DNA of 64,000 nt, from the NCBI GenBank assembly GCA_028280405.1, contig JANQLW010000032.1:9816-73815 (forward strand), written 5' to 3'. This DNA comes from Bacteroidales bacterium. GTDB taxonomy: Bacteria; Bacteroidota; Bacteroidia; Bacteroidales; GCA-2711565. The notes beneath the pieces were generated by a model that was not told where the DNA came from, did no database searches, and was given only the letters and a program-made list of their open reading frames with translations. The position numbers and the translations under genes are program-made. Below, piece after piece: positions 5,562 to 51,273 of this stretch (positions are counted from its first letter, which is position 1; every line of letters begins with the position of its first letter).

Positions 5562-5767
5562 TTTACTCACAATTTTCGCGGTATTAATGATATTACTCGC
5601 AAAACACGCAAAAAGCGCAGAGCCTTTGCGGACTTTGCGTAAAAAACCTTAGCGCCCTTTGCGTGGAAGATATTTTCATACTATTACACTGGTTTAAAAA
5701 AAAAGTTTAATTTTCTTGTCACCCATTTTTGGTCTTTTGATATATGTATAATACACAAGATCGTTAA

Positions 5768-7015: not shown

Positions 7016-7178
7016 AAATAAATAACCGAAGTATAACTAAAATCAGAAAATATGGTAAAATAACTACAGTAGAATAAACAAAAGAGGAACGTAACTTTCC
7101 ACCTGAACAGTAAAAGAATACATTCCCCTTAAAGTCGTATTAATTAATTTATGTAACTAACTAATAACACACAAATTT

Positions 7179-10100: not shown

Positions 10101-10505
10101 TTTGAGTTTGTAAAGCAGAAAGGATGGAACCCAATAGCAAATTTTATTCCATCGTCAGCTAGAAATTTACCTGCAGCTATGATCAATCGCTGGCAAAATC
10201 CCGGAGATGTAACAGACATTCAACAAGTGAATTCAGATTTTAGCTTTATCCTAAGTCACCAACAGCATTATGCTTCAAATCTATCCAGGGTAGATGCTTC
10301 TTTTATTCGTTTACAAAATGTTGCTTTATCTTATACTATTCCGGAAAAAATCAATAAGCGGTTAGGCTTAAGTAGTGCCATCATTTATTTAAGGGCCCAA
10401 AACCTGTTTACCATCACCGGTTTTGATGGTATAGACCCTGAAACACAACGGGTGAAATTCCCGCCTTTAAGAAATATTACTGCAGGCTTACGATTAACGT
10501 TTTAA
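7179..10505 (+). CDS. SusC/RagA-type TonB-dependent outer-membrane transducer with an N-terminal STN signalling domain
   Basis: STN-like N-terminus, then a CarboxypepD_reg-like segment ([16 protein letters not shown]). Plug motif [29 protein letters not shown] and a C-terminal Phe. Confidence 0.9.
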   Translation: [1108 protein letters not shown]

Positions 10506-10516
10506 AAATTTTAGTT

Positions 10517-11923: not shown

Positions 11924-12051
11924 AACTATCAGTATTATAATCTAACCAACCCACCCTAATTATTATTTAATCAATTAGGGTGGGATTGCTAAAGCCAAGA
12001 TGCCAGGAGTTTAAACTTCTGCTGCTTAGTAATTACAAAAAATATATCAAC

Positions 12052-37539: not shown

Positions 37540-37652
37540 AGGATTCTAAATTTTATGAGGGGCTAAAATATGAATTTTTGGGTAGAAGTTTATGGAGTAA
37601 GAAGCAGAATCTTTTACCAAATATACAATGCGTGGAAATTTTTATACGAATT

Positions 37653-37735
37653 GTCATTCTGAGCGTAGCGAAGAATCTCCTAAATGTTGCGAATGTCTTT
37701 TATTTTAGGAGATTCTTCGCTACGCTCAGAATGAC
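37653..37735. repeat. GTCATTCTGAGCGTAGCGAAGAATCTCCTAAA palindromic element (copy 3, perfect arms)
   Basis: A perfect 32-bp inverted repeat separated by about 19 nt. Confidence 0.8.
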
Positions 37736-37759
37736 AGCATTATTTAATATCTTTGTGCC

Positions 37760-37990
37760 ATGTTTGTTATATTTGGCTTCGGAGATCAAAAGGGAGAGGA
37801 AAAACAAGGTTCAAGAGTTGAACATTGTTTTCATTGTAATAATGACAGAGTATGGATTGCTTCAAAAGTAACGGAGAATTTTTCTTTATTTTTTCTTCCG
37901 GTTTTTCCTTATAAAACAACATATACCTATCGTTGTCCGATATGTAATCATGGACATCAGATAAGTAAAGAAGATTTTGAGAGAATGTAG
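37760..37990 (+). CDS. Small zinc-ribbon protein
   Basis: Two CxxC pairs (CFHC ... CPIC) with a hydrophobic segment between them. Confidence 0.5.
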   Translation: MFVIFGFGDQKGEEKQGSRVEHCFHCNNDRVWIASKVTENFSLFFLPVFPYKTTYTYRCPICNHGHQISKEDFERM

Positions 37991-37992
37991 TT

Positions 37993-39465
37993 TTAAAATC
38001 TGCTGCTAATTCTTAACTCAACGCCTTTAAAGTCAAGAACCTCATAACAAATTCCTGAATTACATGCCGGGCCTCCTCTTCGGTTTCCGGCAAATAACTG
38101 AATTTGATGCTTCGAATTTATCTTATAGTTGAAGTTTGTCCCTAACCAGGTCCGGTTTGATTCATTATCATTTAACAGAAACGGATCATTAGACCTTTCT
38201 AAAATTAGATTACAACTAAATTTTGATTTTATGGTCATGCCAACTGATAATAACTGATTAGTCACATTACTTCCGAAGCGCTTAAAATTTTGATATTCAT
38301 AATCTAAGTTTATGCCGCTTGTTTTTGTAAGCATCCACTGTGAATTCATGCCAGTGGTAATCCGTTTTTCTTCCTGTTTAAAAGGATCTTTTGCATAATC
38401 GATAAATAATTTTAAGTCATGTTTATCGGCAAGGCCGGTTGAATACTCCAAAAAATATTCCTCAAAAACATATTTTTGTTCAAAATTATTTTCAGCCCTG
38501 GTTATGTTAAAAGTTAAAATGGAAGATTCCGACAAACTGTAAAATAATTCCAGTTGATACCCTTTTTCATTAGTGGGTTGCAATACATGGGTACTCCTGT
38601 TTAGTAATCTGTAAGCATGTTCTTTTACAAGGGCCGGAGGTTCATTTATTCCTGAGCCTATGAGAAAATTATTATATTCCTTAAGTTCTAAACTCATTCC
38701 CAGATTCCCAAAAGAAGAGCTTAAGCTTAAATAAAATCCATAAGCCCCATCATCGTTCAAATTCAAAAAGTTGCCTTTATTTATATTATGAGCTAATTCG
38801 GCATAATAGGACACAGAAGAGAATAGTAATCCCGAAAGATTTAAAGAATTATAATACATGGTTTCAGGGGAGTCATTCTTCAATTGCATTACAGAAACTC
38901 CCAAGGTTTGATTTAAAAAACCATATTCAGTAGTAATAGCAGCCACTTCATCCGGACGCCTTAAGTCATCATCAAAGGTAGGTGGAAACAAGTAATTGAG
39001 CGGGTTTCCATAAAGTACTTTTAGAGAGAAAGATTTATAACGGTATTTTGCACTTACTCCTCGAATATCCTTATGAAAATAATGCCGGGAACGATAGCTT
39101 AAATCTTCAAGAATGGCACCCGGTATTTCAAAAGACCGTAATAATAATCCCCGGCCGATTGTTTCGTAAAAATGACCTGCTTTAATGTCAAACGATTTCG
39201 TTTTATACTGAAGTTTAAACTGACTTAAGCGGGTATAATTTCGATCTTCAATGGGCGAATAAAAATTTTCCAGGGTTATTCCAGCTTTAAATTTCTGAAG
39301 AGAATAATTTAACATAAACCTGTCATAGATCGAAGAAAATGAATCTTCATTATTATCAGGCAGTTTGCCATATTGATATTCCATTAAATTATAAGCACTA
39401 AATTGTGCTTTTACAGATCCAATTATTAGTAATAAACAAATTAGGTATACGTATTTCTTTTTCAT
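37993..39465 (-). CDS. Predicted outer-membrane beta-barrel protein (DUF6029-like), last gene of the thioredoxin operon
   Basis: Signal peptide MKKKYVYLICLLLIIGSVKAQ, alternating beta-strand pattern and a terminal Phe (ELRISSRF). The family name is recalled. Confidence 0.55.
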   Translation of the reverse strand: MKKKYVYLICLLLIIGSVKAQFSAYNLMEYQYGKLPDNNEDSFSSIYDRFMLNYSLQKFKAGITLENFYSPIEDRNYTRLSQFKLQYKTKSFDIKAGHFYETIGRGLLLRSFEIPGAILEDLSYRSRHYFHKDIRGVSAKYRYKSFSLKVLYGNPLNYLFPPTFDDDLRRPDEVAAITTEYGFLNQTLGVSVMQLKNDSPETMYYNSLNLSGLLFSSVSYYAELAHNINKGNFLNLNDDGAYGFYLSLSSSFGNLGMSLELKEYNNFLIGSGINEPPALVKEHAYRLLNRSTHVLQPTNEKGYQLELFYSLSESSILTFNITRAENNFEQKYVFEEYFLEYSTGLADKHDLKLFIDYAKDPFKQEEKRITTGMNSQWMLTKTSGINLDYEYQNFKRFGSNVTNQLLSVGMTIKSKFSCNLILERSNDPFLLNDNESNRTWLGTNFNYKINSKHQIQLFAGNRRGGPACNSGICYEVLDFKGVELRISSRF

Positions 39466-39501: not shown

Positions 39502-39990
39502 TTAAAGTGAGAGGAGTTTGTCAATTTTATTTTTAATAACTACTTCATCACCAGACTGGAAACCTTCATGAATCCACAAGATTTTACCTGTATCATTTAC
39601 GATAATTAAACTGGGGAAGGCCGAAAGGTTTAATTCTTTCATCAGTTCAGAATCTAAATCAAGCAGGATTGGATACTTTATCTTTAAGACTTTAGTTAAA
39701 GGCTTTACTTTTGCAACAGAGCGAGGGCCATCGCAATTTATTCCGATGACCTTTACTCCTTTTTCCTGATAATCAACACTGATCTTGTTCAGTTCTTTGA
39801 TCGCCTTTTTACATGGTTTACACCAACTTGCCCAGAAATCGATGAGTGTTAATTTTTCTCCTTTTAATTCTTCAAATGATTGATATGAATTATTCAAATC
39901 TTTATAAGAAAAATTACTTATTTGTTGAGCATATAATCCATGGGCAATCAACAATAAGAAAGTAATAAAGAACACTTTTCTTATTCTCAT
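39502..39990 (-). CDS. TlpA-family periplasmic thiol:disulfide oxidoreductase (Cys form)
   Basis: Signal peptide and DFWASWCKPCKKAIKEL. Confidence 0.85.
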   Translation of the reverse strand: MRIRKVFFITFLLLIAHGLYAQQISNFSYKDLNNSYQSFEELKGEKLTLIDFWASWCKPCKKAIKELNKISVDYQEKGVKVIGINCDGPRSVAKVKPLTKVLKIKYPILLDLDSELMKELNLSAFPSLIIVNDTGKILWIHEGFQSGDEVVIKNKIDKLLSL

Positions 39991-40012: not shown

Positions 40013-40612
40013 TTATTCAATATTATCAAGTAAATTTTTAACCTTGGTTACCACTCCATCAAGGTCACTACTTACATTCTTAGAACCTTTATGATGAATT
40101 TTCCCAGCGGTATCAATTACAATCAGGCGATCATATGTTGTTCCATAATCGGATGCCACTGAAGAAGCATTCTTAAGAAGCGGGAATGTAACATTGGTAG
40201 CATCTTTAAATCCTTGTACCGCAGAATTATTGCCATTCCATTGATCAAGGCCTAAAATTGCAAAATTGCTATCGGATTTATATTCATCGTTCAATTTACT
40301 TTCTACACTCGGAGCAACTGCTCTGCATGAAGATCATCCATTGCCGAAAAAGAATAAGACTACAACTTTATCTTTATAATCAGATAATGAAATGGTACTA
40401 CCTGATAAGGCTGTTAAACTAAAACTTGGTGCTGTAGTTGCACTTCCTCCATCACCATTGCCGTTTCCATTGCCGTTTCCGTTCCCATTTCCATTGTCAG
40501 GATTCATTCCATCCATTTCGTCTCCACTACAAGAAAACATTAACCCTGCAGAGACTAAAATGAAGACAGATTGAAGAAAATACTTGTAAATATCTTTTGT
40601 TAGATTTTTCAT
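40013..40612 (-). CDS. Candidate selenoprotein: thioredoxin-fold lipoprotein with UxxC (in-frame TGA at 40334-40336, residue 93 of 199)
   Basis: Two same-frame ORFs are joined by one TGA, reading ...KVVVLFFFGNG-U-SSC-RAVAP... The lipobox is LMFSC and a (GN)7 linker follows. A hairpin GAGC-AGUU-GCUC starts 10 nt after the UGA (plus-strand coordinates 40312-40323). Confidence 0.6.
40453..40497. repeat. Hexanucleotide tandem repeat encoding the (Gly-Asn)n linker
   Basis: The repeat ccattgccgtttcc encodes NGNGNGNGNGNGNGD just after the lipobox Cys. Confidence 0.7.
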
Positions 40613-40735: not shown

Positions 40736-40895
40736 TTCGATTGCTCTATTGTTCTATTGTTAAACTGTTCAATTGTTGAAAGTCCATAAAAACTGATAGC
40801 CTTTTGGCAAGCAATATAACCACCCTTTGCTAAAGCTGCGGGTGGAGATGCAATTTAAACAAGCAATGTAACAATAGAACAATAGAGCAATCGAA
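40736..40895. repeat. MITE-like element with perfect 27-bp terminal inverted repeats
   Basis: TTCGATTGCTCTATTGTTCTATTGTTA at 40736-40762 has its exact reverse complement at 40869-40895. An internal hairpin pairs CCACCC with GGGTGG. Confidence 0.7.
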
Positions 40896-40970: not shown

Positions 40971-42134
40971 ATGAAAATTACGAGCCAAATATGGAACTTA
41001 TTAGCCCTCATCCTTTCAGGTGAAGCCTCTGAAAAAGACAGGCATGACTTTGAAAGCTGGCTGGCAGAAGCGCCTGAAAATCCTTACTTATTTGAAGAGC
41101 TAAAAGCCATTAGTGAGCAATCCCGTCCCACTGCTAAGTTTCAGACTAAAGATATTGAAGAGGCCTGGGCTCAGGTGAAAGCCCAGACACTTGGCCGAAA
41201 AAAGAAGATTGTTCCATTCCGGAAGTTTGTAAAATATGCTGCAGCTGCTTTTTTGATATTGGGAATCTCAGCTGTTATACTGATGCAACAGAAAAAGATT
41301 ACTCCTACTGTTGAGTTTTCAGAATCAACAGTCAAGCCAGGTAAAAGCAAAGCCATTCTCATATTGGATGATGGAAAAGAAATTGGGCTGACTGATGAAA
41401 AAATCAATTTATCCACTAAAGGCGTTCAGATACAAAACAATGCTAGTGGGCTCAGATACATTGCCGACAATAAAATAACTGAATCCGTAATAAACAAACT
41501 TATTGTTCCTAAAGGTGGGGAGTATCCCCTCACTCTTTCCGACGGCACAAAAATATGGTTAAACTCAGAATCGGAAATTACATATCCTGCTCCTTTTAGT
41601 GGAGAAATACGCAAGGTAAATATTATTAGTGGTGAAGTATATTTTGAAGTAGCTAAAGATACTGCCAAGCCTTTTATCGTCAGTATTAATAATAAAGCTG
41701 AAGTAGAAGTTCTGGGTACCCATTTCAATGTAAATGCATACCATGATGAAGCCGCAATCAAAACTACACTCGTTGAAGGTTCGGTTAAAGTCTCATCACT
41801 AATTACGAATGACAGATCACTGATCACACCCGGCCAACAAGCAGGTATCAATGAAGGCGGATATATTGAGGTAAAAGAAGTGGATACAAAATTATATACT
41901 TCATGGAAAGACGGGCAATTTTACTTCAACGATTGTACATTGGAAGCTTTGATGCATTCTTTATCCCGTTGGTACGATTTTGAGGTAGATTATGAGGATG
42001 AGAGTCTGAAAGGCCTCCGTTTTACCGGACTGATAGAAAAACACAACCCTATCGAATACGGATTAAAATTGATAAGCTATACCACTGTGGTATCGTTTAA
42101 GATCGTAGGGAATGCTATTATAGTGAAAAAGTAA
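40971..42134 (+). CDS. FecR family anti-sigma factor
   Basis: TM segment AAAAFLILGISAVILM and FecR core VPKGGEYPLTLSDGTKIWLNSESEITYP. Confidence 0.85.
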   Translation: MKITSQIWNLLALILSGEASEKDRHDFESWLAEAPENPYLFEELKAISEQSRPTAKFQTKDIEEAWAQVKAQTLGRKKKIVPFRKFVKYAAAAFLILGISAVILMQQKKITPTVEFSESTVKPGKSKAILILDDGKEIGLTDEKINLSTKGVQIQNNASGLRYIADNKITESVINKLIVPKGGEYPLTLSDGTKIWLNSESEITYPAPFSGEIRKVNIISGEVYFEVAKDTAKPFIVSINNKAEVEVLGTHFNVNAYHDEAAIKTTLVEGSVKVSSLITNDRSLITPGQQAGINEGGYIEVKEVDTKLYTSWKDGQFYFNDCTLEALMHSLSRWYDFEVDYEDESLKGLRFTGLIEKHNPIEYGLKLISYTTVVSFKIVGNAIIVKK

Positions 42135-42351
42135 TTTGAAAAGGAGACAACTTGACAATGAACGTAATTTTAGAAATAAGACAGCAGATATTGACTTTAG
42201 AAATCCAACATCCAAAAAAGAAAGGAGGAATATCGATTAACTAACAATAAAGCTTAAAACAAAAAAAGGGAGATGCTCCAACATCCCCCTAAATAAACAA
42301 TTCACAAACCGAATAACTAAAACAATTTATGAACTTGTAAACTACAAAAGT

Positions 42352-45300
42352 ATGAAAAAAAACGTACTATTGAATTTTGGGGTTTTTCCCAATAATTGGA
42401 AAAAAATCCTATTGATTATGAAGCTAAGTTTGATCTTTATTTTTTCTGCGATGCTGGCTACAGCTGCCAACAGCTATGGGCAGGAAGGGAAAATTAGTTT
42501 GTCGCTAAAAAACACAAATATTGAGCAGGTACTTAAAAACATTACTGCTCAAACCGGCTATGAATTTATTTACAATAATGATGCCTTTGATGCCGAACTT
42601 AAGGTGGATATTGATGTAAAACAGGCTGACATCCAAAATGTGCTTACACAACTGCTGGATGAGCAATATAGTTATAAGATAGAGGATAAATTTATTGTAA
42701 TCTTTCCGGCATCCTCCACTTCAGAATTAGCATCCATTACCGTAACCGGTAAAGTAACGGACTCAGATGGAAAACCCCTGCCCGGTGCTACTGTATTAAT
42801 AAAAGGCACCTTTAAGGGTATAATCACGGATCAGGAAGGAAAATATAAAATCTCTGAGGTAACCCCTGAGACAATATTGGTATTTTCTTATATCGGTTTT
42901 GCAAAGCAGGAAATTACGGTAGGCAACAAGACCACCATCAATGTTACCTTGGAGCAATCTGCTACCGAATTGGAAGAAGTGACGATTAACGCCGGCTATT
43001 ATACCGTAAAACAAAAAGAAGCAACAGGAAATATCACTAAGGTAGCTGCCAAAGCAATAGAACAGCAGCCGGTAACCAACCCCTTACAAGCCCTGCAAGG
43101 CAGAACCCCGGGTGTTTTTATTTCTCAAAGAACCGGGCTCCCCGGAAGCGGCTTTGATATAGAAATAAGGGGTCGAAACAGCATTAGAAATTGGTCAAAT
43201 AATGATGGAAATCTTCCTTTATACATCATAGATGGAGTCCCTTATGTTTCCGAGTCACTTTCTACAAATCAGTTTGGTTCTATGATTTCTCGTTCAAGTC
43301 CTTTGAACAATATTAATCCCTCTGATATTGAAAGTATTGAAATTCTGAAGGATGCGGATGCAACGGCCATTTATGGTTCGAGGGGAGCCAACGGGGTGGT
43401 ATTGATCACAACGAAAAAGGCCAGGGCCAGCCAGACAAGCCTAGAAATAAACCATTGGATGGGAATTGAACAGGTGCCGCGCAAAATGGAGCTGTTAAAT
43501 ACCGAGCAATACCTGGAAATGCGCCTGGAGGCCTTTAAAAATGACGGGCAAACACCCGATCCAAATAATCCACAGCACTTGGATGTGTTGGAATGGGGGA
43601 GCCGCTATACAGATTGGCAGGAAGAGTTCATAGGAGGAACCGCGAACCTCTCCAACACAAATATCGTCATATCCGGTGGTAATGAAAATACAAGGTTTTC
43701 GCTTGGAGGAACCCTGTACCGCACAACCACCGTTTTCCCGGGAGATTTTTCCTATTTGCGTGGATCAGGCCGCTTTAACCTGAATCATACGAGCCATAAT
43801 AAGAAGTTCAATATAGACTTTACAAGCTTTTACAATACAGGCAGAAATGAGCTTCCTAATGGTGATCTTACTCGTGCTGCTTTAACCCGAGTACCTAATG
43901 CTCCCTCCCTTTTGAACGAAGATGGGAGCCTTAAGTGGGATGATCCTATTGGAGGAAATCCGTTAGCAACACTAAGGAGACAATATCTTGTAAAAACAAG
44001 TAATTTTAATACTAATCTAAGGCTATCCTGGCAATTTACCCCAAAGCTGAAATTAAGCACAAGTTTAGGCTATAACCGGTTACAGCAAAGCGAATTAAGG
44101 ACTAGACCTATCTCAGCTAACAATCCTGCATGGGGTAATACTACCGGAGAGGCTGACTTTACGGAGGGATTGAATTATTTATGGATTATCGAACCCCAAC
44201 TTAAATATACTACTCAATTAGGACCCGGAAGGCTTGGAGTCATTATAGGGGGGACTTTTCAGGAAAATATCAATGAACTTGAAACCACAAGGGCAAGAGG
44301 TTTTCAGGACGATAATTCATTAGAAAACATTGCTGCGGCCGGCGAAACATCCATTCTGGAATATCGCTATACTCAGTATCGATACAGCGCTATTTACGGA
44401 CGTATCAATTACAAGCTGGATGATAAGTACATCCTTAACCTAACTGGCCGTAGAGATGGTTCCAGTAAATTCGGGTCCGACAAAAAATTTGGGAATTTCG
44501 GAGCTATAGGAGCGGCTTGGATCTTTTCAAAGGAAGAATTTTTCAAAGAAAATTCGATATTAAGTTTTGGAAAACTAAGAAGTAGTTACGGTATTATCGG
44601 GAGCGATCAGATCCCGGATTATCAGTACCTGAGCTCCTATCGTTATACAGGTGATTCATACCAGGGAACCCCTTCGCTCTTACCGAACAGAATTGCCAAT
44701 CCTGAATTTAGCTGGGAATCAACCAGGCAATTGGAAGTGGGACTGGAACTGGGTTTCTTTGACGACAGGATCAATACATCTGCAAGCTATTTCAGAAAAC
44801 GGACATCCAATCAACTGGTAGGTTTTGACCTACCCGATATTACCGGCTTCTCCTCCTTTCAATTCAATATGCCGGCTACGGTTGAAAACAAAGGCTGGGA
44901 ATTTTTACTCTCGACCACAAACATCCGTACCAAAGATTTCAGGTGGACTTCCAGCTTAAATCTAAGTGCCTTACGTAATAAACTCATTGAATACCCGAAT
45001 ATTGAAAGTTCCCCTTATGCTAATCGATATCGTATTGGTAAGTCTCTTTACATAAGAGGCTTTTATGACACCTCTGTGGATCCCGAAATTGGTATGTATA
45101 CCTTTGAAGATCTCAATGGAGATGGAAGGGTTACTTATGCAGATGACCGGAGATTTTATGACTTCAGGAAAGATTACTTCGGTGGTTTTCGAAATAATCT
45201 CAGATACAAAAATATTGAGCTGGATTTTCTTTTCCGCTTTGTCAAACAAAAAGGACAAAGTTACTTTACATACTTTGGGCCTCAGGGTTTTCCCGGAAAC

Positions 45301-45645
45301 CAGCCAACAGCAGTTTTAGATCGTTGGCAACAAGCCGGAGATGTAAGCGATATCCAACAATTCACCCAAGGTTTTACATCAGCCCTATGGAAGTGGTTTG
45401 ATGCATTCTATAATTCGGATGAAATAATTATAAATGCTTCCTTTATAAGGCTGGAAAATGTTTCCTTAGCCTACAACTTCCCAGCTCAGCTTCTTAAACA
45501 AATAAATGTAAAACAATTAAGGATTTATTTGCAGGTCCAGAATCTTTTTACCATTACGAATTTTAAAGGCTTGGATCCTGAAACTTGGTATATGTCCTTG
45601 CCACGCCTAAGGAGTATTACAGCAGGTATTCAGTTAAAATTTTAA
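42352..45645 (+). CDS. SusC/RagA-type TonB-dependent transducer with an STN domain (paralog of 7179-10505)
   Basis: STN segment (LKNTNIEQVLKNITAQTGYEFIY). It shares blocks with the first SusC (FSYIGFAKQEI.VGNKTTINVTLEQSATELEEV, IEILKDADATAIYGSRGANGVVLITTKK) and ends in Phe. Confidence 0.9.
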   Translation: MKKNVLLNFGVFPNNWKKILLIMKLSLIFIFSAMLATAANSYGQEGKISLSLKNTNIEQVLKNITAQTGYEFIYNNDAFDAELKVDIDVKQADIQNVLTQLLDEQYSYKIEDKFIVIFPASSTSELASITVTGKVTDSDGKPLPGATVLIKGTFKGIITDQEGKYKISEVTPETILVFSYIGFAKQEITVGNKTTINVTLEQSATELEEVTINAGYYTVKQKEATGNITKVAAKAIEQQPVTNPLQALQGRTPGVFISQRTGLPGSGFDIEIRGRNSIRNWSNNDGNLPLYIIDGVPYVSESLSTNQFGSMISRSSPLNNINPSDIESIEILKDADATAIYGSRGANGVVLITTKKARASQTSLEINHWMGIEQVPRKMELLNTEQYLEMRLEAFKNDGQTPDPNNPQHLDVLEWGSRYTDWQEEFIGGTANLSNTNIVISGGNENTRFSLGGTLYRTTTVFPGDFSYLRGSGRFNLNHTSHNKKFNIDFTSFYNTGRNELPNGDLTRAALTRVPNAPSLLNEDGSLKWDDPIGGNPLATLRRQYLVKTSNFNTNLRLSWQFTPKLKLSTSLGYNRLQQSELRTRPISANNPAWGNTTGEADFTEGLNYLWIIEPQLKYTTQLGPGRLGVIIGGTFQENINELETTRARGFQDDNSLENIAAAGETSILEYRYTQYRYSAIYGRINYKLDDKYILNLTGRRDGSSKFGSDKKFGNFGAIGAAWIFSKEEFFKENSILSFGKLRSSYGIIGSDQIPDYQYLSSYRYTGDSYQGTPSLLPNRIANPEFSWESTRQLEVGLELGFFDDRINTSASYFRKRTSNQLVGFDLPDITGFSSFQFNMPATVENKGWEFLLSTTNIRTKDFRWTSSLNLSALRNKLIEYPNIESSPYANRYRIGKSLYIRGFYDTSVDPEIGMYTFEDLNGDGRVTYADDRRFYDFRKDYFGGFRNNLRYKNIELDFLFRFVKQKGQSYFTYFGPQGFPGNQPTAVLDRWQQAGDVSDIQQFTQGFTSALWKWFDAFYNSDEIIINASFIRLENVSLAYNFPAQLLKQINVKQLRIYLQVQNLFTITNFKGLDPETWYMSLPRLRSITAGIQLKF

Positions 45646-45656
45646 ACAAAGTCATT

Positions 45657-47069
45657 ATGAAAAATACAATCTATACAACTAAGCTGACATATAAAAAGCC
45701 ATTGAGCTTTCTAACGATCATTTTTTGTCTATGCCTAATCTTTTCATGCGAAAAATTCGTAGACATTGACTCCCCCATTACGGAAGTCATTACCGAAGAT
45801 GTTTTTTCCAGTGATGCTACCGCAAATGCTGCTATCATAGGGATGTACTCCAATATGTTTGATAATTCCAGTATTTCAACCCAGTTAACGCGGGAAACAA
45901 GTCTAGCCTCAGATGAGTTGATCGATGTTTCAACGCAATTACCTTTGGGACAATTTTTCAATAACGGCTTAACCTCTGATAATTCTCATGTCTCCCGATT
46001 TTGGACTCAACTATACAAACTCATTTTCTCTGCCAATGATGCGATTGAAGGATTGAAAATTTCAAATCGGGTATCGAAAAACTTAAAAAATCAACTCATG
46101 GGCGAAGCTTATTTTATGAGGGCTTTTTGTCATTTCTATCTAGTTTCTTTATGGAGTGACGTTCCTTTGGTAACTTCTACGGATTATAGAGTGAATAGAC
46201 TAGCCTCAAGAAGCCCGGAAGTTGATGTATTTCAACAGATCATTGATGATTTGACGGAGTCTAAAAGCCTTTTATCGGAAGATTATTCTTTTTCTGGTGG
46301 AGAACGGTTCCGTCCGAATAAATTTACAGCTTCTGCTTTGTTGGCAAGGGTTTACCTGTATACAGAGGCCTGGGAAAATGCAGAAACGGAATCGACCATG
46401 GTCATCAATCATTCAGCCTATGAACTCTTATCCGATTTAAATGCGATTTTTCTTGAAAACAGCCGGGAGGCCATTTGGCAATTGCAATCATTTAATAATG
46501 AAGGTACCAATACCCATGATGGAAACATATATATCATTCTGCAAACACCTCCAACAATTGTAACATTGAGAGATGAACTTGCTGATTCGTTTGAATCCAA
46601 TGATGACAGAAAAAATCATTGGATTGACAGTATCTCTGATGATTCTCAAACCTATTATTTTGCTTATAAATATAAAATCCGGGGTGCTAATACGACGCTT
46701 CCTATCACAGAAGCTATGGTATTCTTCCGCTTGGCTGAGCAATACCTGATCCGGGCTGAAGCACGTGCAAATACCGGAAATATTTCCGGAGCCCAGGCCG
46801 ATATTAATATGATCCGTAACCGGGCCGGCCTTCCGAACACAACAGCAACTGATCAGGCATCCTTGCTGCTGGCCATTGAAAAGGAGAGAAAGCATGAACT
46901 CTTTACAGAAGGCAGCCACCGATGGATGGATTTAAAACGAACAGGCCGGATAGATGAGGTCTTAGGTTTAGTCAAACCGGGTTGGGACCCGCATGACAAA
47001 CTATTTCCCATCCCGAAAGATGAACTTACGGATAATCCGAATTTGACTCAAAATCCGGGATATAATTAA
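45657..47069 (+). CDS. SusD/RagB family lipoprotein
   Basis: The preferred ATG at 45657 gives MKNTIYTT... with the lipobox LIFSCEKF. Motifs RAFCHFYLVSLW and RWMDLKRTG. The C-terminus is NLTQNPGYN. Confidence 0.9.
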   Translation: MKNTIYTTKLTYKKPLSFLTIIFCLCLIFSCEKFVDIDSPITEVITEDVFSSDATANAAIIGMYSNMFDNSSISTQLTRETSLASDELIDVSTQLPLGQFFNNGLTSDNSHVSRFWTQLYKLIFSANDAIEGLKISNRVSKNLKNQLMGEAYFMRAFCHFYLVSLWSDVPLVTSTDYRVNRLASRSPEVDVFQQIIDDLTESKSLLSEDYSFSGGERFRPNKFTASALLARVYLYTEAWENAETESTMVINHSAYELLSDLNAIFLENSREAIWQLQSFNNEGTNTHDGNIYIILQTPPTIVTLRDELADSFESNDDRKNHWIDSISDDSQTYYFAYKYKIRGANTTLPITEAMVFFRLAEQYLIRAEARANTGNISGAQADINMIRNRAGLPNTTATDQASLLLAIEKERKHELFTEGSHRWMDLKRTGRIDEVLGLVKPGWDPHDKLFPIPKDELTDNPNLTQNPGYN

Positions 47070-47168
47070 AGGCTCTTCGGCGAAGGCACGTTTGGCGAAG
47101 GCTTCGGCCTTCGTCAATAACCACACAACCACTAAATAGATCATTAAAAATTAAATAAATAGAAAAAA

Positions 47169-48446
47169 ATGAGAAGAAAAACATTATTCCTCACTTTTGC
47201 CTTATTTACCAGCACATTATTTGCTCAAAACAATGCCGGGCAATCAACAATTTCCATTGGAGATGAGGTACCCAATCTGAAATTTTCAAAAATGGTTAAC
47301 TATCCTGCAAAAGAGATAGCCTTGCATGAGCTGAAAGACAAACTAATTATTCTTGATTTTTGGGCCAAATGGTGATGGGGTTGTATCAAAGACTTTCCAA
47401 GGTTGGATAAGCTACAACGACAATTTGACGGGGAAATTCAAATTTTGCCCTATGCGGAAGAAAAGCTGGAAAAAGTTGAAGATATTTTTGCCAGGATAAA
47501 AAAACAAATGGATCTTATTTTGCCCAGTGCTTCGGAGACAAGCATTCCCAAAGTAATTAACTCGAATAAGAAAATATGGATATACAAAGGTAAATTAATT
47601 GCTAAAACCGGAACACTTGAAGTAAATGCTGAAAATATTGAAGCCGTATTGAACGGTGGTGAGATTAAGTATAAAGGACTCAGAAATAAAAAAAAGAAAG
47701 AGTTTGAACATTTAAATGATTTTAACGGACTGCAATTAAATCATTCCGTATTGAGGAAAAATATTGGGGAAAAATTCCAATCAGCATTATCCAAAGGAAT
47801 GAAAGGGTATGATGTTGACTCGAAATATAAAATGCCCAAAGAAGATGATAAGGTTTACGGAAGAAGATACATTAATTTTACTATTTCTCTACTATATATT
47901 AGAGCTTATGATCTTCCTTCCATATCAGAATGGGTTATTGAAGTCGCGGATAAAAAACATTTTTATCCCGGGTATGGAATGGAAAATGCATCCAATACCT
48001 ATTGCTATGAAATAATGGCTTCGAATGATGAAAACATGGGTTTTAGAGATATCCATAAAGAGGCTAATAAAATAATGCAGAAAGACCTGGAAAAGGTATT
48101 TAACATTACAGTAAAAAAAGAGAAAAGAAATATTAAGGTATACGTACTTAGGAAAATGAAGGGTTATGAGAAATTGATTAGCAAAGGCGGTGAAAAAAAA
48201 ATGGAAGCAACAGCCTTTTTTATCAATTATCAAAACATGCCTTTTTCTGCTTTGGTAAAAAAAATTGAATACTGTTTGGAAACAGGTTTTTTAATTGATG
48301 AAACCGGGCTTGATATAAATGTTGACCTTGACATTAATGTACGAACCTATGATTATAAAGAAATGAAACAAGCCCTAAAAGAATATGGCCTTGAATTAAC
48401 AATAGAAGAAAGAGAACGGGAAGTGTTTGTGATAAAAGAAATTTAA
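47169..48446 (+). CDS. Candidate selenoprotein: TlpA-like thioredoxin domain with UxxC (TGA at 47373-47375, residue 69 of 425) fused to a DUF3738/TIGR03435-like domain
   Basis: Same-frame ORFs 47169-47375 and 47403-48446 read ...LIILDFWAKW-U-WGC-IKDFPRLDKLQ... This aligns with the WCGPC and WCKPC motifs of the Cys paralogs at 12052-13656 and 39502-39990. A signal peptide is present and a candidate hairpin lies at 47380-47418. Confidence 0.6.
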
Positions 48447-48474
48447 GACGTTTGAAGTTTATGTTTATGTCTAC

Positions 48475-48590
48475 GTCATCCTGTCTGCCAGAGGTCGAAG
48501 CTAGCTCTTACCCTAATCGATTGCAACCACGCCTCGACAAGCTCGGCGGCCTGGGTCATTGAGCGAAGCGTAGCGTAGTCGAAATGCGAC
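48475..48590. repeat. Degenerate member of the GTCATCCTG / GAGCGAAGCG repeat family
   Basis: GTCATCCTG..., CCTCGACAAGCTCG and GTCATTGAGCGAAGCGTAGCG lie between the two candidate selenoprotein genes. Confidence 0.4.
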
Positions 48591-48648
48591 CAATACCAAC
48601 AAGGCCGAACGAAATAGAGATAAAAAAACAAAAATTAATTTATAAATA

Positions 48649-50526
48649 ATGAAAACTAAATACTTATCATTTTTACTGGGAATAGTACTTTCATCAACAC
48701 TATTTGCCCAGCATTCAAAAACAGACAAACAAAGATCAACCAACTTTCCAATATTCCCTGAAATTCTAAATACTAATATTCCGGGAGCACCTTTATTAGG
48801 GAAGCCGGTACTGATAAATGGCAAGAAACAGGAGATCCGGGTTGAAAAGCACGGGCTGGCTTACCCGGCCCTTTTTGACTGGGACAGGGATGGAAAAAAA
48901 GATCTTTTGATTGGCGAATTTGAAACCGGCCAAACAGGTTCAAATATCAAAGTATACCTTAACCGGGGATCCAACAAAAAGCCCAAATATTCCGGTGAAT
49001 ACTTTTATGCCCTGAATACTAAAGGCGATACGATTACGACTCACCAGTGGTGATGTATTGGCACACATCCTCAGTTTGTGGATTTAAATAATGACGGCTA
49101 TATGGATATGTTAAGCGGCCAGTACAATCCCGGAAAAATTTCGTGGTGGAGAGGATCGGAAAATGGTTTTCTTCCAAGGGTTTTTGTTGAACAAAAGGGC
49201 TATGTTGAAGGTGCCCAACCGAATTATGATATGGCTCCCTGGGATCCTAAATCAACTAACTATTGGGAATTTACCTCTGCCGGATTTGCAGATTTTAATG
49301 GTGATGGTTTACAGGATTTATTTGTAGGAGGGTTTAGGGAGTTCCGTGTAGCTTTAAATAAAGGGACAAAAACGGATCCGAAATTTGGATTACGTAAATA
49401 TTTGTTAGGGCTTGACGGAGAACCTCTATCTATAAAAAGGTCCGGTAAAAAAGAAATTGAAGAAAGCCGTAAAAAAGGACAGTATCTCAACCTTTCAGGG
49501 GTATCTAAAAGTTTTATAAACCCTGTTGATTGGGATGGTGATGGAGTACTGGACTTACTAATTACCCATTCTTATTCAAAAAAAGGGGGGAATCCCGTTG
49601 AATTTTTTCGTGGTGTTCAAACAGATAAAGGTCTGCGATTTGAGCCCCCTAAGCCTTTATTTACAGCTAAAAAAGGGCAAAAGACTTTCCCGGGCTGTTG
49701 CCCCAATATTAAGGTGGCGGATTATAATAATGATGGGGTGCTGGATTTGATCTTTGGCCTTTCTATTCCAACGATTAATGGGTTTGAAATTGATTCATCA
49801 GTTGCATGGAATTATAATGATAATCTGAAGCTTAATACACCTGGAAAAGATGTAGGCCGACAAATTAAAATTTATAGCAATAAACAAATTGCTGAAATAA
49901 AGAAAAGGCTTGATGGTAACCCTTCTCCGGATTTAAGACGATCGTATATAGGAGATTTGGAAGATAGTAAGTATATCACATTACGTCACCGGGGGTATAT
50001 ATATGTGATGCTGGGGAGAAAGAATCCTGTAAAAGCCGTAGCTGAAAAACTAAAAGCTAAGGCAGAGGTTAAACGAAAGGTCATAAAAAATGAGACCATC
50101 AAAACAGGTGGAGGCAATAGCCCCCTACAATTTGAGGTAAAAGCTCCCCAGCGTATAAAATACAATAAAGAATACCTGGTAGAAGTTGTTATGAATTTTG
50201 ATCAAGGATGGTATGGCTACGCCAATACAAAAGGGAATATTTCCCTTGGTTTAATTCCAACAAAAATTGAGTATAAATTCCCCGAAGGCTTTGAATTGGT
50301 TGGAAAAGCCGTAGAACCTAAACCTCTGCAAAAAAGGGGGACTGATGTGTATCAAAACATGAACCAGGTCTTCTTTCAGAAATTCAAAGTACCCTATATC
50401 CAGGGAAAAGAAGGAACAGGTGAATACACCATTGCAGTCATTGTTCATTACCAGGTTTGTGATGAGAACGGATGTTTGCCGCCAACAAAGGAAAATATAA
50501 AAATGAAAGCTTGGTTATTCTGGTAA
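48649..50526 (+). CDS. Candidate selenoprotein: secreted FG-GAP/VCBS-repeat protein (TGA at 49051-49053, residue 135 of 625) with a DsbD-alpha-like C-terminal domain
   Basis: The same-frame ORFs read ...TITTHQW-U-CIGTHPQFVDLNNDGYMDM... There are five DxDxDG repeats (FDWDRDGKKDLL, VDLNNDGYMDML, ADFNGDGLQDLF, VDWDGDGVLDLL, ADYNNDGVLDLI). The split cuts one repeat. The C-terminus HYQVCDENGCLPP resembles the DsbD N-terminal domain motif. Confidence 0.55.
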
Positions 50527-50736
50527 ATGATAATAAAATAAATAAAAATGATAGCTATGTAAAAAGGTGTGGGCTTCCTTGATAGGATTCCAGGAGCTCC
50601 CCAGGGGGCTCGGAGAACTTCTCTGAGATTCCCCTCTTCCTTATTGAAGACTGAAAGACTAAAGGACGAAAAAATGTTTGTAGTAATAGACCTGATTGCC
50701 TCAGGTAAGTTTGTCAATAGAAGGTATCACATGCAA

Positions 50737-51273
50737 TTATAAAAATGAGCCTAATTCCTTTCTCATAATCTTATAAGCAATGCCAATCTGCGTTTTGACT
50801 GTATTGATGGAAATATTCAGTACTTGTGCAATTTCGGCATATTTGAGTCCGGCTACATTACTCATGATAAATATCTTTCGGCATTTTTTGGGCAGTTTAA
50901 GTAATGCCTTCCTTAGCCTTTTATGTGTGTCTTCTATTAAGCTTTCATCTTCCGAATGAGTTTCTGCTTCTTGTGTTTGACGATATTGTGTAAATACTCT
51001 TTCCACAAAAGAATCATGGTTTATATAATTAATGCAGCTATTTCTCACAGCCTGGCGTGCATAGGATTGGAATGAACCTTTAATAGTTAGTTTGTCCCTT
51101 TTTTCCCAGAACTTGATAAAAAATTCCTGAACAATATCATCTGCCGTTTGATTGTCTCTGATAAAGATAAAAGCATGCTCGCATAGCATTTCATAATGTA
51201 AACGGAACAATGACTCGAATATAGTTTCAGTGATTCCCTGATCGGGATCGATATGTTCATGATTCTTTGTCAA
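50737..51273 (-). CDS. ECF sigma factor, convergent with the end of the SusC/SusD/selenoprotein locus
   Basis: Region 2 DIVQEFFIKFW. Region 4 LKYAEIAQVLNISINTVKTQIGIAYKIMR. Confidence 0.85.
   Translation of the reverse strand: MTKNHEHIDPDQGITETIFESLFRLHYEMLCEHAFIFIRDNQTADDIVQEFFIKFWEKRDKLTIKGSFQSYARQAVRNSCINYINHDSFVERVFTQYRQTQEAETHSEDESLIEDTHKRLRKALLKLPKKCRKIFIMSNVAGLKYAEIAQVLNISINTVKTQIGIAYKIMRKELGSFL

What the first reader, a model, noticed from the sequence alone, without database searches (positions are those of the whole stretch)
40013..40612. Third TGA-split thioredoxin-fold gene: a lipoprotein with GNG-U-SSC in place of CxxC
Minus-strand ORFs 40334-40612 and 40013-40294 share a frame and are bridged by 13 sense codons. 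The junction reads VVVLFFFGNG-U-SSC-RAVAP, which is the strand-loop-helix position where redoxin/TlpA proteins carry CxxC. A small hairpin GAGC-AGUU-GCUC starts 10 nt after the UGA (plus-strand coordinates 40312-40323), and its loop contains GU. That spacing is similar to the E. coli fdhF SECIS upper stem, but the stem here is only 4 bp. The gene heads an operon with a Cys-type TlpA and an outer-membrane barrel.
Basis: partly seen in the sequence, partly recalled or inferred. Interest (0 to 1): 0.8.

Follow-up and report, generated by a model that had tools for sequence, protein, structure and literature searches.

The report
Selenocysteine redoxin lipoprotein gene, Bacteroidota
The "split" gene is almost certainly one intact gene for an exported thioredoxin-fold enzyme in which a UGA codon encodes selenocysteine in place of the first active-site cysteine. 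This kind of bacterial selenoprotein is already known, but here it occurs in an unusual group (Bacteroidota) and probably sits at the cell surface.

Summary
Minus-strand 40612-40013 is one 199-residue frame with a single in-frame TGA (40334-40336).

- **Sec/Cys pair.** The TGA lies exactly on the first Cys of the family's conserved CxxC, giving U-S-S-C. Pfam AhpC-TSA/Redoxin matches and an AlphaFold model (ResA/TlpA-like) span both halves.
- **Independent TGA forms.** Thirteen other environmental loci, in about seven sequence groups, carry TGA at the same codon with the downstream frame intact. Some come from organisms that use TGA stops freely.
- **Hairpin.** All six members of the window's clade keep GAGC-NGUY-GCUC 10 nt after the UGA. 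Cys and Ser forms lack it. The other Sec clades have a GGUC-type loop with G23/U24.
- **Context.** Real pseudogenes of this family carry deletions, frameshifts or a stop elsewhere. The gene sits in a conserved module: redoxin lipoprotein, Cys-TlpA and a DUF6029 outer-membrane barrel.

Not shown: sel genes (none in the window) and actual selenium incorporation. The hairpin is minimal (4 bp, -4.8 kcal/mol).

Verdict: a new member of the known UxxC thioredoxin-fold selenoproteins. Side observation: none of the window's 41 genes ends in TGA.

The parts
40013..40612 (-). Complete selenoprotein gene candidate: 199 residues plus a TAA stop, with one in-frame TGA.
   Evidence: Translation. Pfam AhpC-TSA and Redoxin matches cover residues 59-181 on both sides of the TGA.
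40334..40336 (-). In-frame TGA, codon 93, read as selenocysteine (U93). It takes the place of the first Cys of CxxC.
   Evidence: It aligns with the first-Cys column, which is Cys in all 22 aligned homologues. It also aligns with the first Cys of CGVC and CPPC in solved structures 2ls5 and 3kcm. The same codon is TGA in 13 other loci.
40325..40327 (-). Cys96, the resolving Cys of the U-S-S-C motif.
   Evidence: This column is conserved in at least 90% of homologues.
40312..40323 (-). Minimal SECIS-like hairpin GAGC-AGUU-GCUC at +14 to +25 from the U of UGA, with loop G19 and U20.
   Evidence: With the first 12 nt masked it is the dominant fold (pair probability 0.92, -4.8 kcal/mol). The stem is invariant in all six Sec forms of this clade. 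It is absent from Cys and Ser forms. It is one of only 10 AGKU-loop hairpins in the whole window.
40302..40333 (-). Extended imperfect helix (+4 to +35) around the mini-hairpin.
   Evidence: The minimum-free-energy structure is -9.4 kcal/mol with z = -0.59. The lower stem is only partly kept in the closest relative L092, so it is probably not essential.
40529..40612 (-). Signal peptide ending in the lipobox Cys28 (LMFS-C).
   Evidence: Cys28 is conserved in at least 90% of homologues at the end of a hydrophobic segment. The model shows helix 8-25.
40445..40528 (-). Acidic stretch after the lipid-anchor Cys (S-G-D-E-M-D) followed by a (Asn-Gly)n tether.
   Evidence: Read from the sequence. It resembles the Bacteroidetes lipoprotein export signals SDDDD and SDDFE (PMC5080379). 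The model has low pLDDT over residues 30-51.
40016..40444 (-). Thioredoxin-fold (TlpA/ResA-like, 'Prx-like') catalytic domain, residues 57-199.
   Evidence: Ten-residue block means of pLDDT are 89-98 from residue 61. Foldseek target-normalised TM-scores are 0.77-0.84 to 2ls5 and ResA. All family-conserved residues after the TGA are retained.
39502..39990 (-). Partner gene: Cys-type TlpA-like redoxin (WCKPC) with a cleavable signal peptide and no lipobox.
   Evidence: Pfam AhpC-TSA 73 bits, Redoxin 65 bits. It is adjacent to the redoxin lipoprotein in Cys and Sec loci.
37993..39465 (-). Partner gene: DUF6029 outer-membrane beta-barrel with an invariant Cys pair (C468 and C473, + coordinates 38047-38064).
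   Evidence: Pfam DUF6029 85.6 bits. The Cys pair is invariant in 23 sequences. The AlphaFold model has ~24 strands. Foldseek matches usher and TonB-dependent transporter barrels. Co-located in 15 or more loci.
47169..48446 (+). Second TGA-containing redoxin in the window (FWAKW-U-WGC; TGA at 47373-47375; hairpin UCCA-AGGU-UGGA at 47396-47407). Supporting context, not part of this gene.
   Evidence: The TGA aligns with the first Cys of WCGPC in the in-window paralogue at 11980-13656.
48649..50526 (+). Third TGA-containing gene in the window (FG-GAP plus DsbD_N; THQW-U-CIG; TGA at 49051-49053; hairpin with AGUUU loop at 49067-49083). Supporting context.

Best explanation
Window 40612-40013 (minus strand) is one functional gene for an exported lipoprotein with a thioredoxin fold. 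It belongs to the TlpA/ResA-like, 'Prx-like' thiol:disulfide oxidoreductases.

**Decoding.** Codon 93 (UGA) is decoded as selenocysteine, so the active site is U-S-S-C instead of C-P-S-C. Recoding most likely works as in other bacteria. SelB carrying Sec-tRNA(Sec) binds a small hairpin in the mRNA just downstream, GAGC-AGUU-GCUC, with G19 and U20 in the loop. It then delivers Sec to the ribosome in competition with termination.

**Function.** The mature protein is lipid-anchored at Cys28. It probably acts outside the cytoplasm, possibly on the cell surface, as a selenol/thiol redox enzyme. Its likely partners are the two co-transcribed gene products, a periplasmic Cys-type TlpA and a DUF6029 outer-membrane barrel that carries an invariant Cys pair.

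**Shown here:**
- an intact reading frame with one TGA;
- the Sec/Cys alignment;
- recurrence of the TGA in independent lineages;
- a conserved hairpin specific to the Sec forms;
- the thioredoxin fold;
- the conserved three-gene module.

**Inferred, not shown:**
- that Sec, rather than another residue, is inserted;
- SelB dependence;
- cellular location;
- the redox partners and the substrate.
For: 1. **Single in-frame TGA.** It is the only interruption in a 199-residue frame, and the domain spans both sides.
2. **Sec/Cys pair.** The TGA falls on the first Cys of CxxC in 22 of 22 homologues and in solved structures.
3. **No decay downstream.** Every invariant or nearly invariant family residue after the TGA is retained.
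4. **TGA recurs in other loci.** A DNA pattern that required the TGA returned 15 metagenome loci. Twelve are true homologues with the frame conserved past the TGA, falling into six sequence groups. A seventh, L092, is 73% identical to the window protein. Several of these loci come from organisms that use TGA as a stop: L078 3/6, L081 4/8, L084 5/7, L085 8/12.
5. **Sec-specific RNA signal.**
   - All six Sec forms of the window's clade keep GAGC-NGUY-GCUC, held in place by synonymous choices (Arg NGA, Ala GCU).
   - The Cys and Ser forms L001-L005, L013, L102 and L104 have Lys-Ala codons and no hairpin.
   - Three of the four other Sec groups form a stem-loop with G23 and U24 in a GGUC-type loop; two of them (four loci) use a 5-bp stem, and compensatory changes GGCUG/CAGCC versus GCUUG/CAAGC are seen between them. 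Over the whole alignment only 2 of 500 shuffles reach the observed covariation score.
   - Overall 11 of 12 metagenome Sec forms have such a hairpin, against a 2-5% background.
6. **Other TGAs in the same window.** Two more redox genes have an in-frame TGA at or next to an active-site Cys, each followed by a hairpin with an AGKU loop. Only 10 such strict hairpins exist in 128 kb of both strands, and two of them sit after these TGAs.
7. **Real pseudogenes look different.** In this family they show a deletion, a frameshift, or a stop in the linker.
8. **Precedent.** UxxC thioredoxin-fold proteins are established bacterial selenoprotein families (PMC1794560, PMC13188914).
Against: - **No Sec machinery seen.** There is no selA, selB, selD or tRNA-Sec in the 64-kb window, and the rest of the genome could not be examined.
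- **Borderline hairpin.** Measured against the published bSECIS model (PMC13188914), the stem is 4 bp, which is the minimum. Fourteen nt separate the UGA from the loop, whereas the model asks for 16-37. The conserved part is only -4.8 kcal/mol, whereas the model asks for -7.5 or lower. The fold z-score is not significant.
- **No covariation in this clade.** The stem is invariant in the window's own clade.
- **No Rfam match**, even at E = 10.
- **One Sec group lacks the hairpin.** L084/L086 has no GU-loop hairpin.
- **Standard termination at UGA is not demonstrated here.** No gene in the window ends in TGA.
- **Rarity in the phylum.** Sec use was reported as absent or rare in Bacteroidetes (PMC1794560; Table S2 of PMC5029168).
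Confidence: 0.85

Rival explanations
1. Dead gene or sequencing error. A single-base change (TGC or TGT to TGA) hit the first active-site Cys codon. The gene is a recent pseudogene, or the assembly is wrong, and only a 92-residue fragment is made.
For: TGY to TGA needs one substitution. No Sec machinery is visible in the window. The hairpin is small and not significant by energy.
Against: - The same TGA occurs in 13 other loci from about seven divergent groups, all with the downstream frame intact.
- All conserved residues after the TGA are kept.
- A hairpin specific to the Sec forms is maintained through synonymous codon choice.
- Two further in-frame TGAs at redox-motif positions lie in the same 64 kb.
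- Genuine pseudogenes of the family look different.
Confidence: 0.03
2. UGA is decoded, but not as Sec. Either UGA is read as Cys by a tRNA(Sec)-like tRNA(Cys)/SelB-type system, or UGA has been reassigned or freed from termination in this lineage and is read by another tRNA.
For: - None of the window's 41 genes ends in TGA, against 8/42 in the closest Cys-form relatives of similar G+C (Fisher p = 0.005).
- Out-of-frame TGA is abundant in the window's genes, so the lack is specific to termination.
- Nothing in the sequence distinguishes Sec from Cys insertion.
Against: - There are only three in-frame TGAs against 218 TGG, 118 TGY and far more Gly codons, and all three lie at redox-motif positions. 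A general Trp, Gly or Cys reassignment would scatter TGA widely.
- Trp or Gly would destroy the CxxC site.
- Homologous TGA forms exist in organisms that clearly terminate at TGA.
- The abstract of PMC13462651 lists UGA-to-Trp reassignment in only four bacterial phyla, and Bacteroidota is not among them.
Confidence: 0.07
3. UGA terminates most of the time. The locus mainly yields a short 92-residue lipopeptide, and the downstream part is rarely translated or is made separately from the internal TTG at 40294.
For: Sec insertion in bacteria is generally inefficient (general knowledge). The hairpin is weak.
Against: - A thioredoxin fold cut between strand 1 and helix 1 cannot fold.
- The TTG-initiated fragment would lack both the signal peptide and the active site.
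- Conservation of the whole domain in all Sec forms shows selection on the full-length product.
Confidence: 0.03

Closest known systems
'Prx-like thiol:disulfide oxidoreductase' selenoprotein family (PF00578, UxxC). Related entries in the 2026 catalogue (PMC13188914) are 'Redoxin family protein' (PF08534, UxxC) and 'thiol-disulfide isomerase-like / TlpA-family' (cd02966, UxxC or UGC).
   Same: - Same Pfam domains, above their cut-offs.
- The same UxxC motif at the start of helix 1.
- The same logic of a Sec/Cys pair with Cys homologues.
- A peroxiredoxin-like Arg after the loop where TlpA proteins have a cis-Pro (D161-R162).
   Different: - Direct sequence comparison with the catalogued representatives was not possible, because their accessions could not be fetched.
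- No curated NCBIfam model, including the selenoprotein redoxin models TUGYCR and WAxxUGC, reaches its cut-off.
- The host is Bacteroidota.
- The protein is a lipoprotein with a surface-export-like signal, or a T9SS cargo in the distant clade.
- It sits in a fixed module with a DUF6029 barrel.
ResA (Bacillus subtilis) and TlpA/DsbE-type extracytoplasmic thiol-disulfide reductases; B. thetaiotaomicron PDI-like protein 2ls5.
   Same: - Same fold: Foldseek probability 1.0, target-normalised TM-score 0.77-0.84.
- Sequence hits with E = 1e-11 to 1e-5.
- Membrane-anchored and extracytoplasmic, with CxxC at the same place.
   Different: - These are Cys proteins, and ResA and TlpA have a cis-Pro opposite the active site. 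Here Sec replaces the first Cys and the cis-Pro position is Asp-Arg. 2ls5 also lacks the Pro.
- The substrates of ResA and TlpA (apocytochrome c, Cu chaperones) are not indicated by this gene neighbourhood.
E. coli fdhF SECIS (upper stem-loop with a GGUC loop, G23/U24, starting 11 nt after the UGA; recalled from established knowledge).
   Same: - A hairpin that starts 10 nt after the UGA, with G-U in a 4-nt loop.
- The distant Sec clades of this family have a GGUC(C) loop with G23 and U24 at exactly the fdhF positions.
   Different: - In the window's clade the stem is only 4 bp with no bulged U. G-U therefore sits at +19/+20 instead of +23/+24, and the stability is about -4.8 kcal/mol.
- SelB binding was not tested.

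Membership tests
Bacterial selenoprotein gene (Sec-UGA recoding) | A single in-frame UGA in an otherwise intact ORF, with protein homology on both sides. | tested here: met
Bacterial selenoprotein gene (Sec-UGA recoding) | The UGA aligns with Cys in homologues (a Sec/Cys pair) at a redox-active position. | tested here: met
   First Cys of CxxC in 22 of 22 homologues and in solved structures.
Bacterial selenoprotein gene (Sec-UGA recoding) | The UGA is conserved at the same codon in orthologues from independent genomes. | tested here: met
   Thirteen loci in about seven groups.
Bacterial selenoprotein gene (Sec-UGA recoding) | A bSECIS as defined in PMC13188914: loop of 3-9 nt, upper stem of 4-16 bp, G in the first two loop positions, spacing of 16-37 nt, and MFE of -7.5 kcal/mol or lower. 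| tested here: inconclusive
   - Loop AGUU: meets the rule.
- G at loop position 2, followed by U: meets the rule.
- Stem of 4 bp: the minimum allowed.
- Spacing: 14 nt between the UGA and the loop (17 if counted from the U), so borderline.
- Energy: -9.4 kcal/mol for the window's extended helix, but only -4.8 for the part conserved across the clade.
- Conservation and Sec-specificity support function.
Bacterial selenoprotein gene (Sec-UGA recoding) | selA, selB, selC (tRNA-Sec) and selD are present in the genome. | not testable with these tools
   None lies in the window. The source contig could not be retrieved, and the source genome is not among the genome-contig hits.
Bacterial selenoprotein gene (Sec-UGA recoding) | Selenium is actually incorporated at the UGA position. 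| not testable with these tools
   Needs 75Se labelling or mass spectrometry.
Thioredoxin-fold TlpA/ResA-like redoxin (PF00578 / PF08534) | The Pfam family model scores above its gathering threshold. | tested here: met
   AhpC-TSA 58.5 bits against a cut-off of 26; Redoxin 53.5 bits against 26.6.
Thioredoxin-fold TlpA/ResA-like redoxin (PF00578 / PF08534) | Thioredoxin fold with the CxxC at the strand 1 - loop - helix 1 junction. | tested here: met
   Model: strand 83-89, U93, helix 95-111. Foldseek matches ResA, 2ls5 and 3kcm.
Thioredoxin-fold TlpA/ResA-like redoxin (PF00578 / PF08534) | A cis-Pro loop opposite the active site. | tested here: not met
   In the alignment to 3kcm, invariant Asp161-Arg162 occupies the place of the Pro-Glu of that loop. 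2ls5 has Thr-Arg there. This is the 'Prx-like' trait of the subfamily.
Peroxiredoxin proper (PxxxTxxC/U) | Thr or Ser three residues before the peroxidatic Cys/Sec, and Pro seven residues before it. | tested here: not met
   The sequence is F-F-F-G-N-G-U. Position -3 is Gly and position -7 is Leu86, not Pro.
NCBIfam selenoprotein redoxin models (NF053656 TUGYCR; NF041054 WAxxUGC) | The score reaches the curated cut-off. | tested here: not met
   TUGYCR scores 28.7 bits against a cut-off of 100. WAxxUGC gives no hit for this protein.
Bacteroidota surface-exposed lipoprotein (lipoprotein export signal) | A lipobox Cys followed by a polar residue and then two or more acidic residues within positions +2 to +6. 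| tested here: inconclusive
   - The window has C-S-G-D-E-M-D. Homologues have C-S-D-S-D-D-E, C-T-D-D-D-K and C-S-S-E-M-E-M-D.
- Published consensus signals are SDDDD, SDDFE and K-(D/E)2 (PMC5080379).
- The resemblance is good, but L080 lacks it and localisation is untested.

The most novel reading that the evidence does not exclude
In this Bacteroidota lineage UGA may have largely stopped serving as a stop codon: 0 of 41 genes end in it, against about 16-19% in relatives. It may instead be reserved for selenocysteine at the active sites of exported redox proteins, read with only a minimal 4-bp hairpin that has an AGKU loop.

The Sec-lipoprotein would then be displayed on the cell surface. Its distant Sec homologues are T9SS cargo. 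It would be kept reduced across the outer membrane by a relay made of the periplasmic Cys-TlpA and the DUF6029 barrel with its invariant Cys pair.
Probability: 0.08. Interest if true: 0.85.

Novelty: new member of a known kind. Interest (0 to 1): 0.5.

Why it matters
- **Annotation.** Standard pipelines split this gene into two hypothetical fragments or call it a pseudogene. No curated NCBIfam model covers it. Recognising it as a selenoprotein corrects the annotation for a whole clade of environmental Bacteroidota.
- **Sec use in Bacteroidota.** Sec use was reported as absent in this phylum in 2006. In 2016 it was limited to six genomes with 0-1 known selenoproteins each. Three candidates in 64 kb suggest a much richer envelope selenoproteome.
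- **A handle on an uncharacterised module.** The Sec form marks the redoxin of a conserved, unstudied three-gene module (redoxin, TlpA, DUF6029 barrel) as the catalytic, high-reactivity component.
- **Location.** Export signals in both clades, LES-like lipoprotein and T9SS sorting domain, point to a selenoenzyme working at or beyond the outer membrane, which would be unusual.
- **SECIS detection.** The minimal hairpin tests how small a bacterial SECIS can be, which matters for programs that find SECIS elements.

Tried and rejected
- **Rfam.** Scans at gathering threshold (whole window) and at E up to 10 (40240-40350) gave no SECIS or other relevant family.
- **tRNA.** ARAGORN found no tRNA in the window and no tRNA-Sec in the related loci.
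- **Source contig.** Exact-match look-ups of the window's own proteins found nothing. The 75.9-kb source contig and its genome stayed out of reach.
- **Genome scan.** The genome-contig scan was dominated by unrelated redoxins sharing the peptide DYKDKVVV. Only L001-L005 and L013 were family members, and none had a TGA.
- **C-terminal half as query.** Searching the protein database this way to fish out split genes gave one new Sec form (L092). The other short hits were pseudogenes (a deletion in L093-96, a frameshift in L097-99, a linker stop in L100) or a contig-edge fragment (L101).
- **Fold energies.** Energies of the region after the TGA are not better than shuffles for any of the three window candidates, so energy alone was dropped as evidence.
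- **Covariation.** None in the 14-17/22-25 register, because the stem is invariant. The alternative 18-22/26-30 register pairs partly in the window too, but its loop (CUC) has no G, so it was not adopted for this clade.
- **Peroxiredoxin reading.** JGI names the homologues 'peroxiredoxin', but the PxxxTxxC signature is missing.
- **Code 4 or 25.** Considered because TGA stops are absent. Rejected as the main reading because in-frame TGA is confined to three redox-motif positions.
Full report
**1. The observation**

The minus strand from 40612 to 40013 reads as 200 codons with one internal stop. That stop is a TGA at codon 93 (+ coordinates 40334-40336), and the frame ends in TAA. The junction is VVVLFFFGNG-TGA-SSCRAVAP. 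The hairpin GAGC-AGUU-GCUC lies at 40312-40323, which is +14 to +25 counted from the U of UGA. All stated coordinates are correct.

**2. What the protein is**

With the TGA replaced by Cys, Pfam AhpC-TSA (58.5 bits) and Redoxin (53.5 bits) match residues ~60-180, on both sides of the TGA. A database search found 212 relatives. In an alignment of 22 of them, the TGA column is the first Cys of a conserved C-P-S-C. Every invariant or nearly invariant residue downstream is present in the window protein: C96, P101, GLD-W-G 121-127, T158, T159, D161, R162, G170, G176 and others.

- **Solved structures.** The nearest by sequence are a Bacteroides thetaiotaomicron PDI-like protein (2ls5), a Geobacter thioredoxin-family protein (3kcm) and ResA. 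U93 aligns with the first Cys of their CxxC.
- **Model.** An AlphaFold model has ten-residue block means of pLDDT of 89-98 from residue 61. It places U93 between strand 83-89 and helix 95-111. Foldseek returns 2ls5, ResA, DsbE and TlpA-type proteins with target-normalised TM-scores of 0.77-0.84.
- **Subfamily trait.** The family lacks the cis-Pro of TlpA and ResA and has an invariant Asp-Arg there. It also lacks the PxxxTxxC signature of true peroxiredoxins. It is therefore best described as a 'Prx-like' thiol:disulfide oxidoreductase.
- **N-terminus.** There is a signal peptide ending in a conserved Cys28. An acidic stretch (S-G-D-E-M-D) and an Asn-Gly tether follow.

**3. Is the TGA a lesion or a codon?**

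TGY to TGA is a single substitution, so the Sec/Cys alignment alone cannot exclude a fresh nonsense mutation. I therefore scanned metagenome contigs with a degenerate DNA pattern that required the TGA (FF[FL]G-xx-TGA-xx-C-x-A-xx-P). Of 15 matches, 12 are true homologues in which the frame continues through a conserved domain to a normal stop.

- **Sequence groups.** The 12 homologues fall into six groups with these junctions: GNG-U-PSC, GSG-U-TFC/PFC, GHN-U-SSC/SRC, GHG-U-TSC/PSC, GHN-U-SVC and GWN-U-GTC.
- **A seventh Sec form.** L092 is 73% identical to the window protein (FFLGST-U-SSC-RAVAP). It came from a search with the C-terminal half.
- **TGA stops in the same organisms.** Several of these loci belong to organisms that plainly terminate genes at TGA: L078 3/6, L081 4/8, L084 5/7 and L085 8/12.
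- **What real pseudogenes look like.** Family members that really are broken carry a deletion of the active-site segment (L093-96), a frameshift in an A-run (L097-99) or a stop in the linker (L100).
- **Phylogeny.** A neighbour-joining tree places the window plus L092, and L080 plus L088, among Cys forms of Bacteroidota. The remaining Sec forms make a distant clade.

**4. The RNA element**

By energy the hairpin is unremarkable. The extended helix is -9.4 kcal/mol with z = -0.59, and the 4-bp core is -4.8 kcal/mol. About 3% of codon positions in the window's genes are followed by some hairpin of 4 bp or more with a GU-containing loop. The comparative evidence is much stronger.

- **Conserved in the window's clade.** All six Sec forms (window, L092, L080, L087, L088, L089) have G14-A-G-C17 / N-G-U-Y / G22-C-U-C25. 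The stem is built from Arg NGA, Ala GCN, Val GUY, Ala GCU and Pro CCN codons. With the first 12 nt masked, to mimic the ribosome, it is the dominant structure (pair probability 0.79-0.99).
- **Absent from Cys and Ser forms.** L001-L005, L013, L102 and L104 have Lys-Ala-Ala/Thr codons there and no hairpin. All 14 Sec forms have Arg after the second Cys, although the search pattern also allowed Lys.
- **The other Sec clades.** Three of the four other Sec groups place G23 and U24 in a GGUC-type loop. Two of them (L078/L081 and L090/L091) use a 5-bp stem at +18-22/+26-30, with compensatory changes between them (GGCUG/CAGCC versus GCUUG/CAAGC). L079/L085 uses a 6-bp stem at +14-19/+25-30. These are the loop sequence and positions known for E. 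coli fdhF (recalled from established knowledge).
- **Counts.** Eleven of 12 metagenome Sec forms have a GU-loop hairpin, against a 2-5% background. L084/L086 does not.
- **The other two in-frame TGAs in the window.** Those at 47373 and 49051 are also followed by hairpins with AGGU and AGUUU loops. Only 10 strict AGKU-loop hairpins exist on both strands of the 64-kb window, and two of them lie 14-28 nt after two of the three in-frame TGAs. The motif was defined after seeing the data, so these numbers are indicative only.

Against the published bSECIS model (PMC13188914) the element passes on loop size and on the G in the loop. It is at the minimum on stem length. It is borderline or failing on spacing (14 nt between UGA and loop) and on energy. 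Rfam has no match.

**5. Rivals**

- **Pseudogene or sequencing error.** Effectively excluded by section 3.
- **General reassignment of UGA.** This needs a closer look, because none of the window's 41 genes ends in TGA (36 TAA, 5 TAG). The only ORFs that end in TGA are the three upstream halves of the candidates. Relatives of similar G+C use TGA for 8 of 42 stops (L102, L104, L093), giving Fisher p = 0.005. Out-of-frame TGA is common in the window's genes.
  - Even so, there are only three in-frame TGAs against 218 TGG and 118 TGY codons, and all three are at redox-motif positions.
  - Trp or Gly would abolish the active site.
  - I therefore keep 'non-Sec decoding' (for example Cys insertion) as a minor rival, and record the stop-codon bias as an unexplained side observation.

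**6. Surroundings and likely function**

The gene is followed after 22 nt by a Cys-type TlpA (WCKPC, cleavable signal peptide) and after a further 36 nt by a DUF6029 protein.

- **The module is conserved.** The trio occurs in Cys loci (L001-L003, L102-L105, L094, L097, L101) and in Sec loci (L078, L079, L080, L081, L085, L090, L091). In several Sec loci the gene order is permuted.
- **DUF6029.** It has 684 detected homologues and an invariant Cys pair in GGPAC-xxG-x-CYE near the C-terminus. The AlphaFold model is a ~24-strand beta-barrel that matches usher and TonB-dependent transporter barrels.
- **Export signals.** The window clade has an acidic stretch after the lipid-anchor Cys that resembles the Bacteroidetes lipoprotein export signal (PMC5080379). 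Two Sec forms scanned from the distant clade (L081, L091) have no lipobox but carry a T9SS type A sorting domain above its cut-off (TIGR04183 at 32.5 and 37.4 bits against 23), and L078, L079 and L085 share the same NYPNPFNP-type tail. Two different export devices therefore both point to the cell surface.
- **Working model (inferred).** A surface or envelope selenol/thiol oxidoreductase is kept reduced through the periplasmic TlpA and perhaps the barrel's Cys pair. The substrate is unknown.
- **Wider context.** The window is from a Bacteroidota genome. It holds two ECF-sigma/FecR/SusC/SusD loci, and each is followed by a redoxin gene.

**7. Comparison with what is known**

UxxC thioredoxin-fold selenoproteins are established. 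Examples are 'Prx-like thiol:disulfide oxidoreductase' (PF00578), 'thiol:disulfide interchange protein', 'Redoxin family protein' (PF08534) and TlpA-family UGC proteins (PMC1794560, PMC13188914). This gene fits that kind. The differences are these:

- no curated model covers it;
- the host phylum was reported to lack Sec decoding in 2006, and in 2016 had six Sec-trait genomes with 0-1 known selenoproteins each;
- it has a lipoprotein or T9SS export context;
- it sits in a fixed module with DUF6029;
- its SECIS is very small.

**8. Limits**

No sel genes or tRNA-Sec lie in the window, and the source genome could not be reached. Sec incorporation, SelB binding, localisation and substrate are all inferred.

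**Verdict**

The gene is a genuine selenoprotein gene with about 0.85 confidence. It is a new member of a known kind and of moderate interest.

Noticed in passing
whole window (41 genes): No gene ends in TGA (36 TAA, 5 TAG). The only TGA-terminated ORFs of 60 aa or more are the upstream halves of the three Sec candidates. Relatives of similar G+C use TGA for 8 of 42 stops (Fisher p = 0.005). Out-of-frame TGA is abundant in the window's genes. This may be avoidance of UGA termination in a Sec-rich lineage, or chance.
   Followed up: partly
window 47169-48446 (+), TGA at 47373-47375: A second UxxC candidate: a TlpA-like N-terminal domain plus DUF3738, with FWAKW-U-WGC. The TGA aligns with the first Cys of WCGPC in the in-window paralogue at 11980-13656. 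A hairpin UCCA-AGGU-UGGA lies at 47396-47407.
   Followed up: partly
window 48649-50526 (+), TGA at 49051-49053: A third in-frame TGA (THQW-U-CIGTHP) in a secreted FG-GAP repeat protein with a C-terminal DsbD_N domain. A hairpin with an AGUUU loop lies at 49067-49083. Its homologues were not examined.
   Followed up: partly
window 37993-39465 (-): The DUF6029 barrel has an invariant Cys pair (C468, C473) in GGPAC-xxG-x-CYE. It also has three highly conserved segments (111-132, 271-295, 465-476) that AlphaFold models with low confidence. These could be plug or lumen loops, and the Cys pair a redox site.
   Followed up: partly
L078, L079, L081, L085, L091: Sec forms of the distant clade end in a T9SS type A sorting domain (NYPNPFNP...). 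L081 and L091 were scanned and score above the TIGR04183 cut-off. These would be selenoproteins secreted by the type IX system.
   Followed up: partly
window 37652-37736: A perfect 33-nt inverted repeat (TGTCATTCTGAGCGTAGCGAAGAATCTCCTAAA) with a 19-nt spacer. It lies between the end of the operon and the next gene. It could be a terminator or a repeat element.
   Followed up: no
window 40736-40767 and 40864-40895: A 32-nt inverted repeat (94% complementary, arms 96 nt apart) that contains a tandem CTATTGTT. It lies in the 358-nt divergent region between the Sec operon and the FecR gene. It could be a regulatory site or a small mobile element.
   Followed up: no
window 37760-37990 (+): A 76-aa ORF with two CxxC pairs (HCFHC...RCPIC), zinc-ribbon-like, convergent with the end of the operon. 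Not checked against databases.
   Followed up: no
homologues P0001-P0082; L004, L005, L013: Many relatives are tandem fusions of two copies of this redoxin domain (~327 aa), each with CxxC. Paludibacter homologues have S-P-E-C, so the first Cys has been lost.
   Followed up: no
window 5007-13656 and 40971-51273: Two ECF-sigma / FecR / SusC / SusD loci each end with an AhpC-TSA/TlpA-like plus DUF3738 protein (Cys form at 11980-13656, Sec form at 47169-48446). This is a recurring pairing of transport genes with a redoxin, of unknown function.
   Followed up: no
L093-L100: Degraded copies of the same gene in other metagenomes: the active-site segment deleted (L093-96), a frameshift in an A-run (L097-99) and a stop in the linker (L100). 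The partner TlpA and DUF6029 genes next to them remain intact.
   Followed up: yes
L089 2096-7423: The contig carrying one Sec form also encodes a 1264-aa ORF that looks like Cas12a, followed by ORFs that look like Cas4 and Cas1. These names are judged from the ORF translations only and were not checked against any database. Unrelated to the finding.
   Followed up: no
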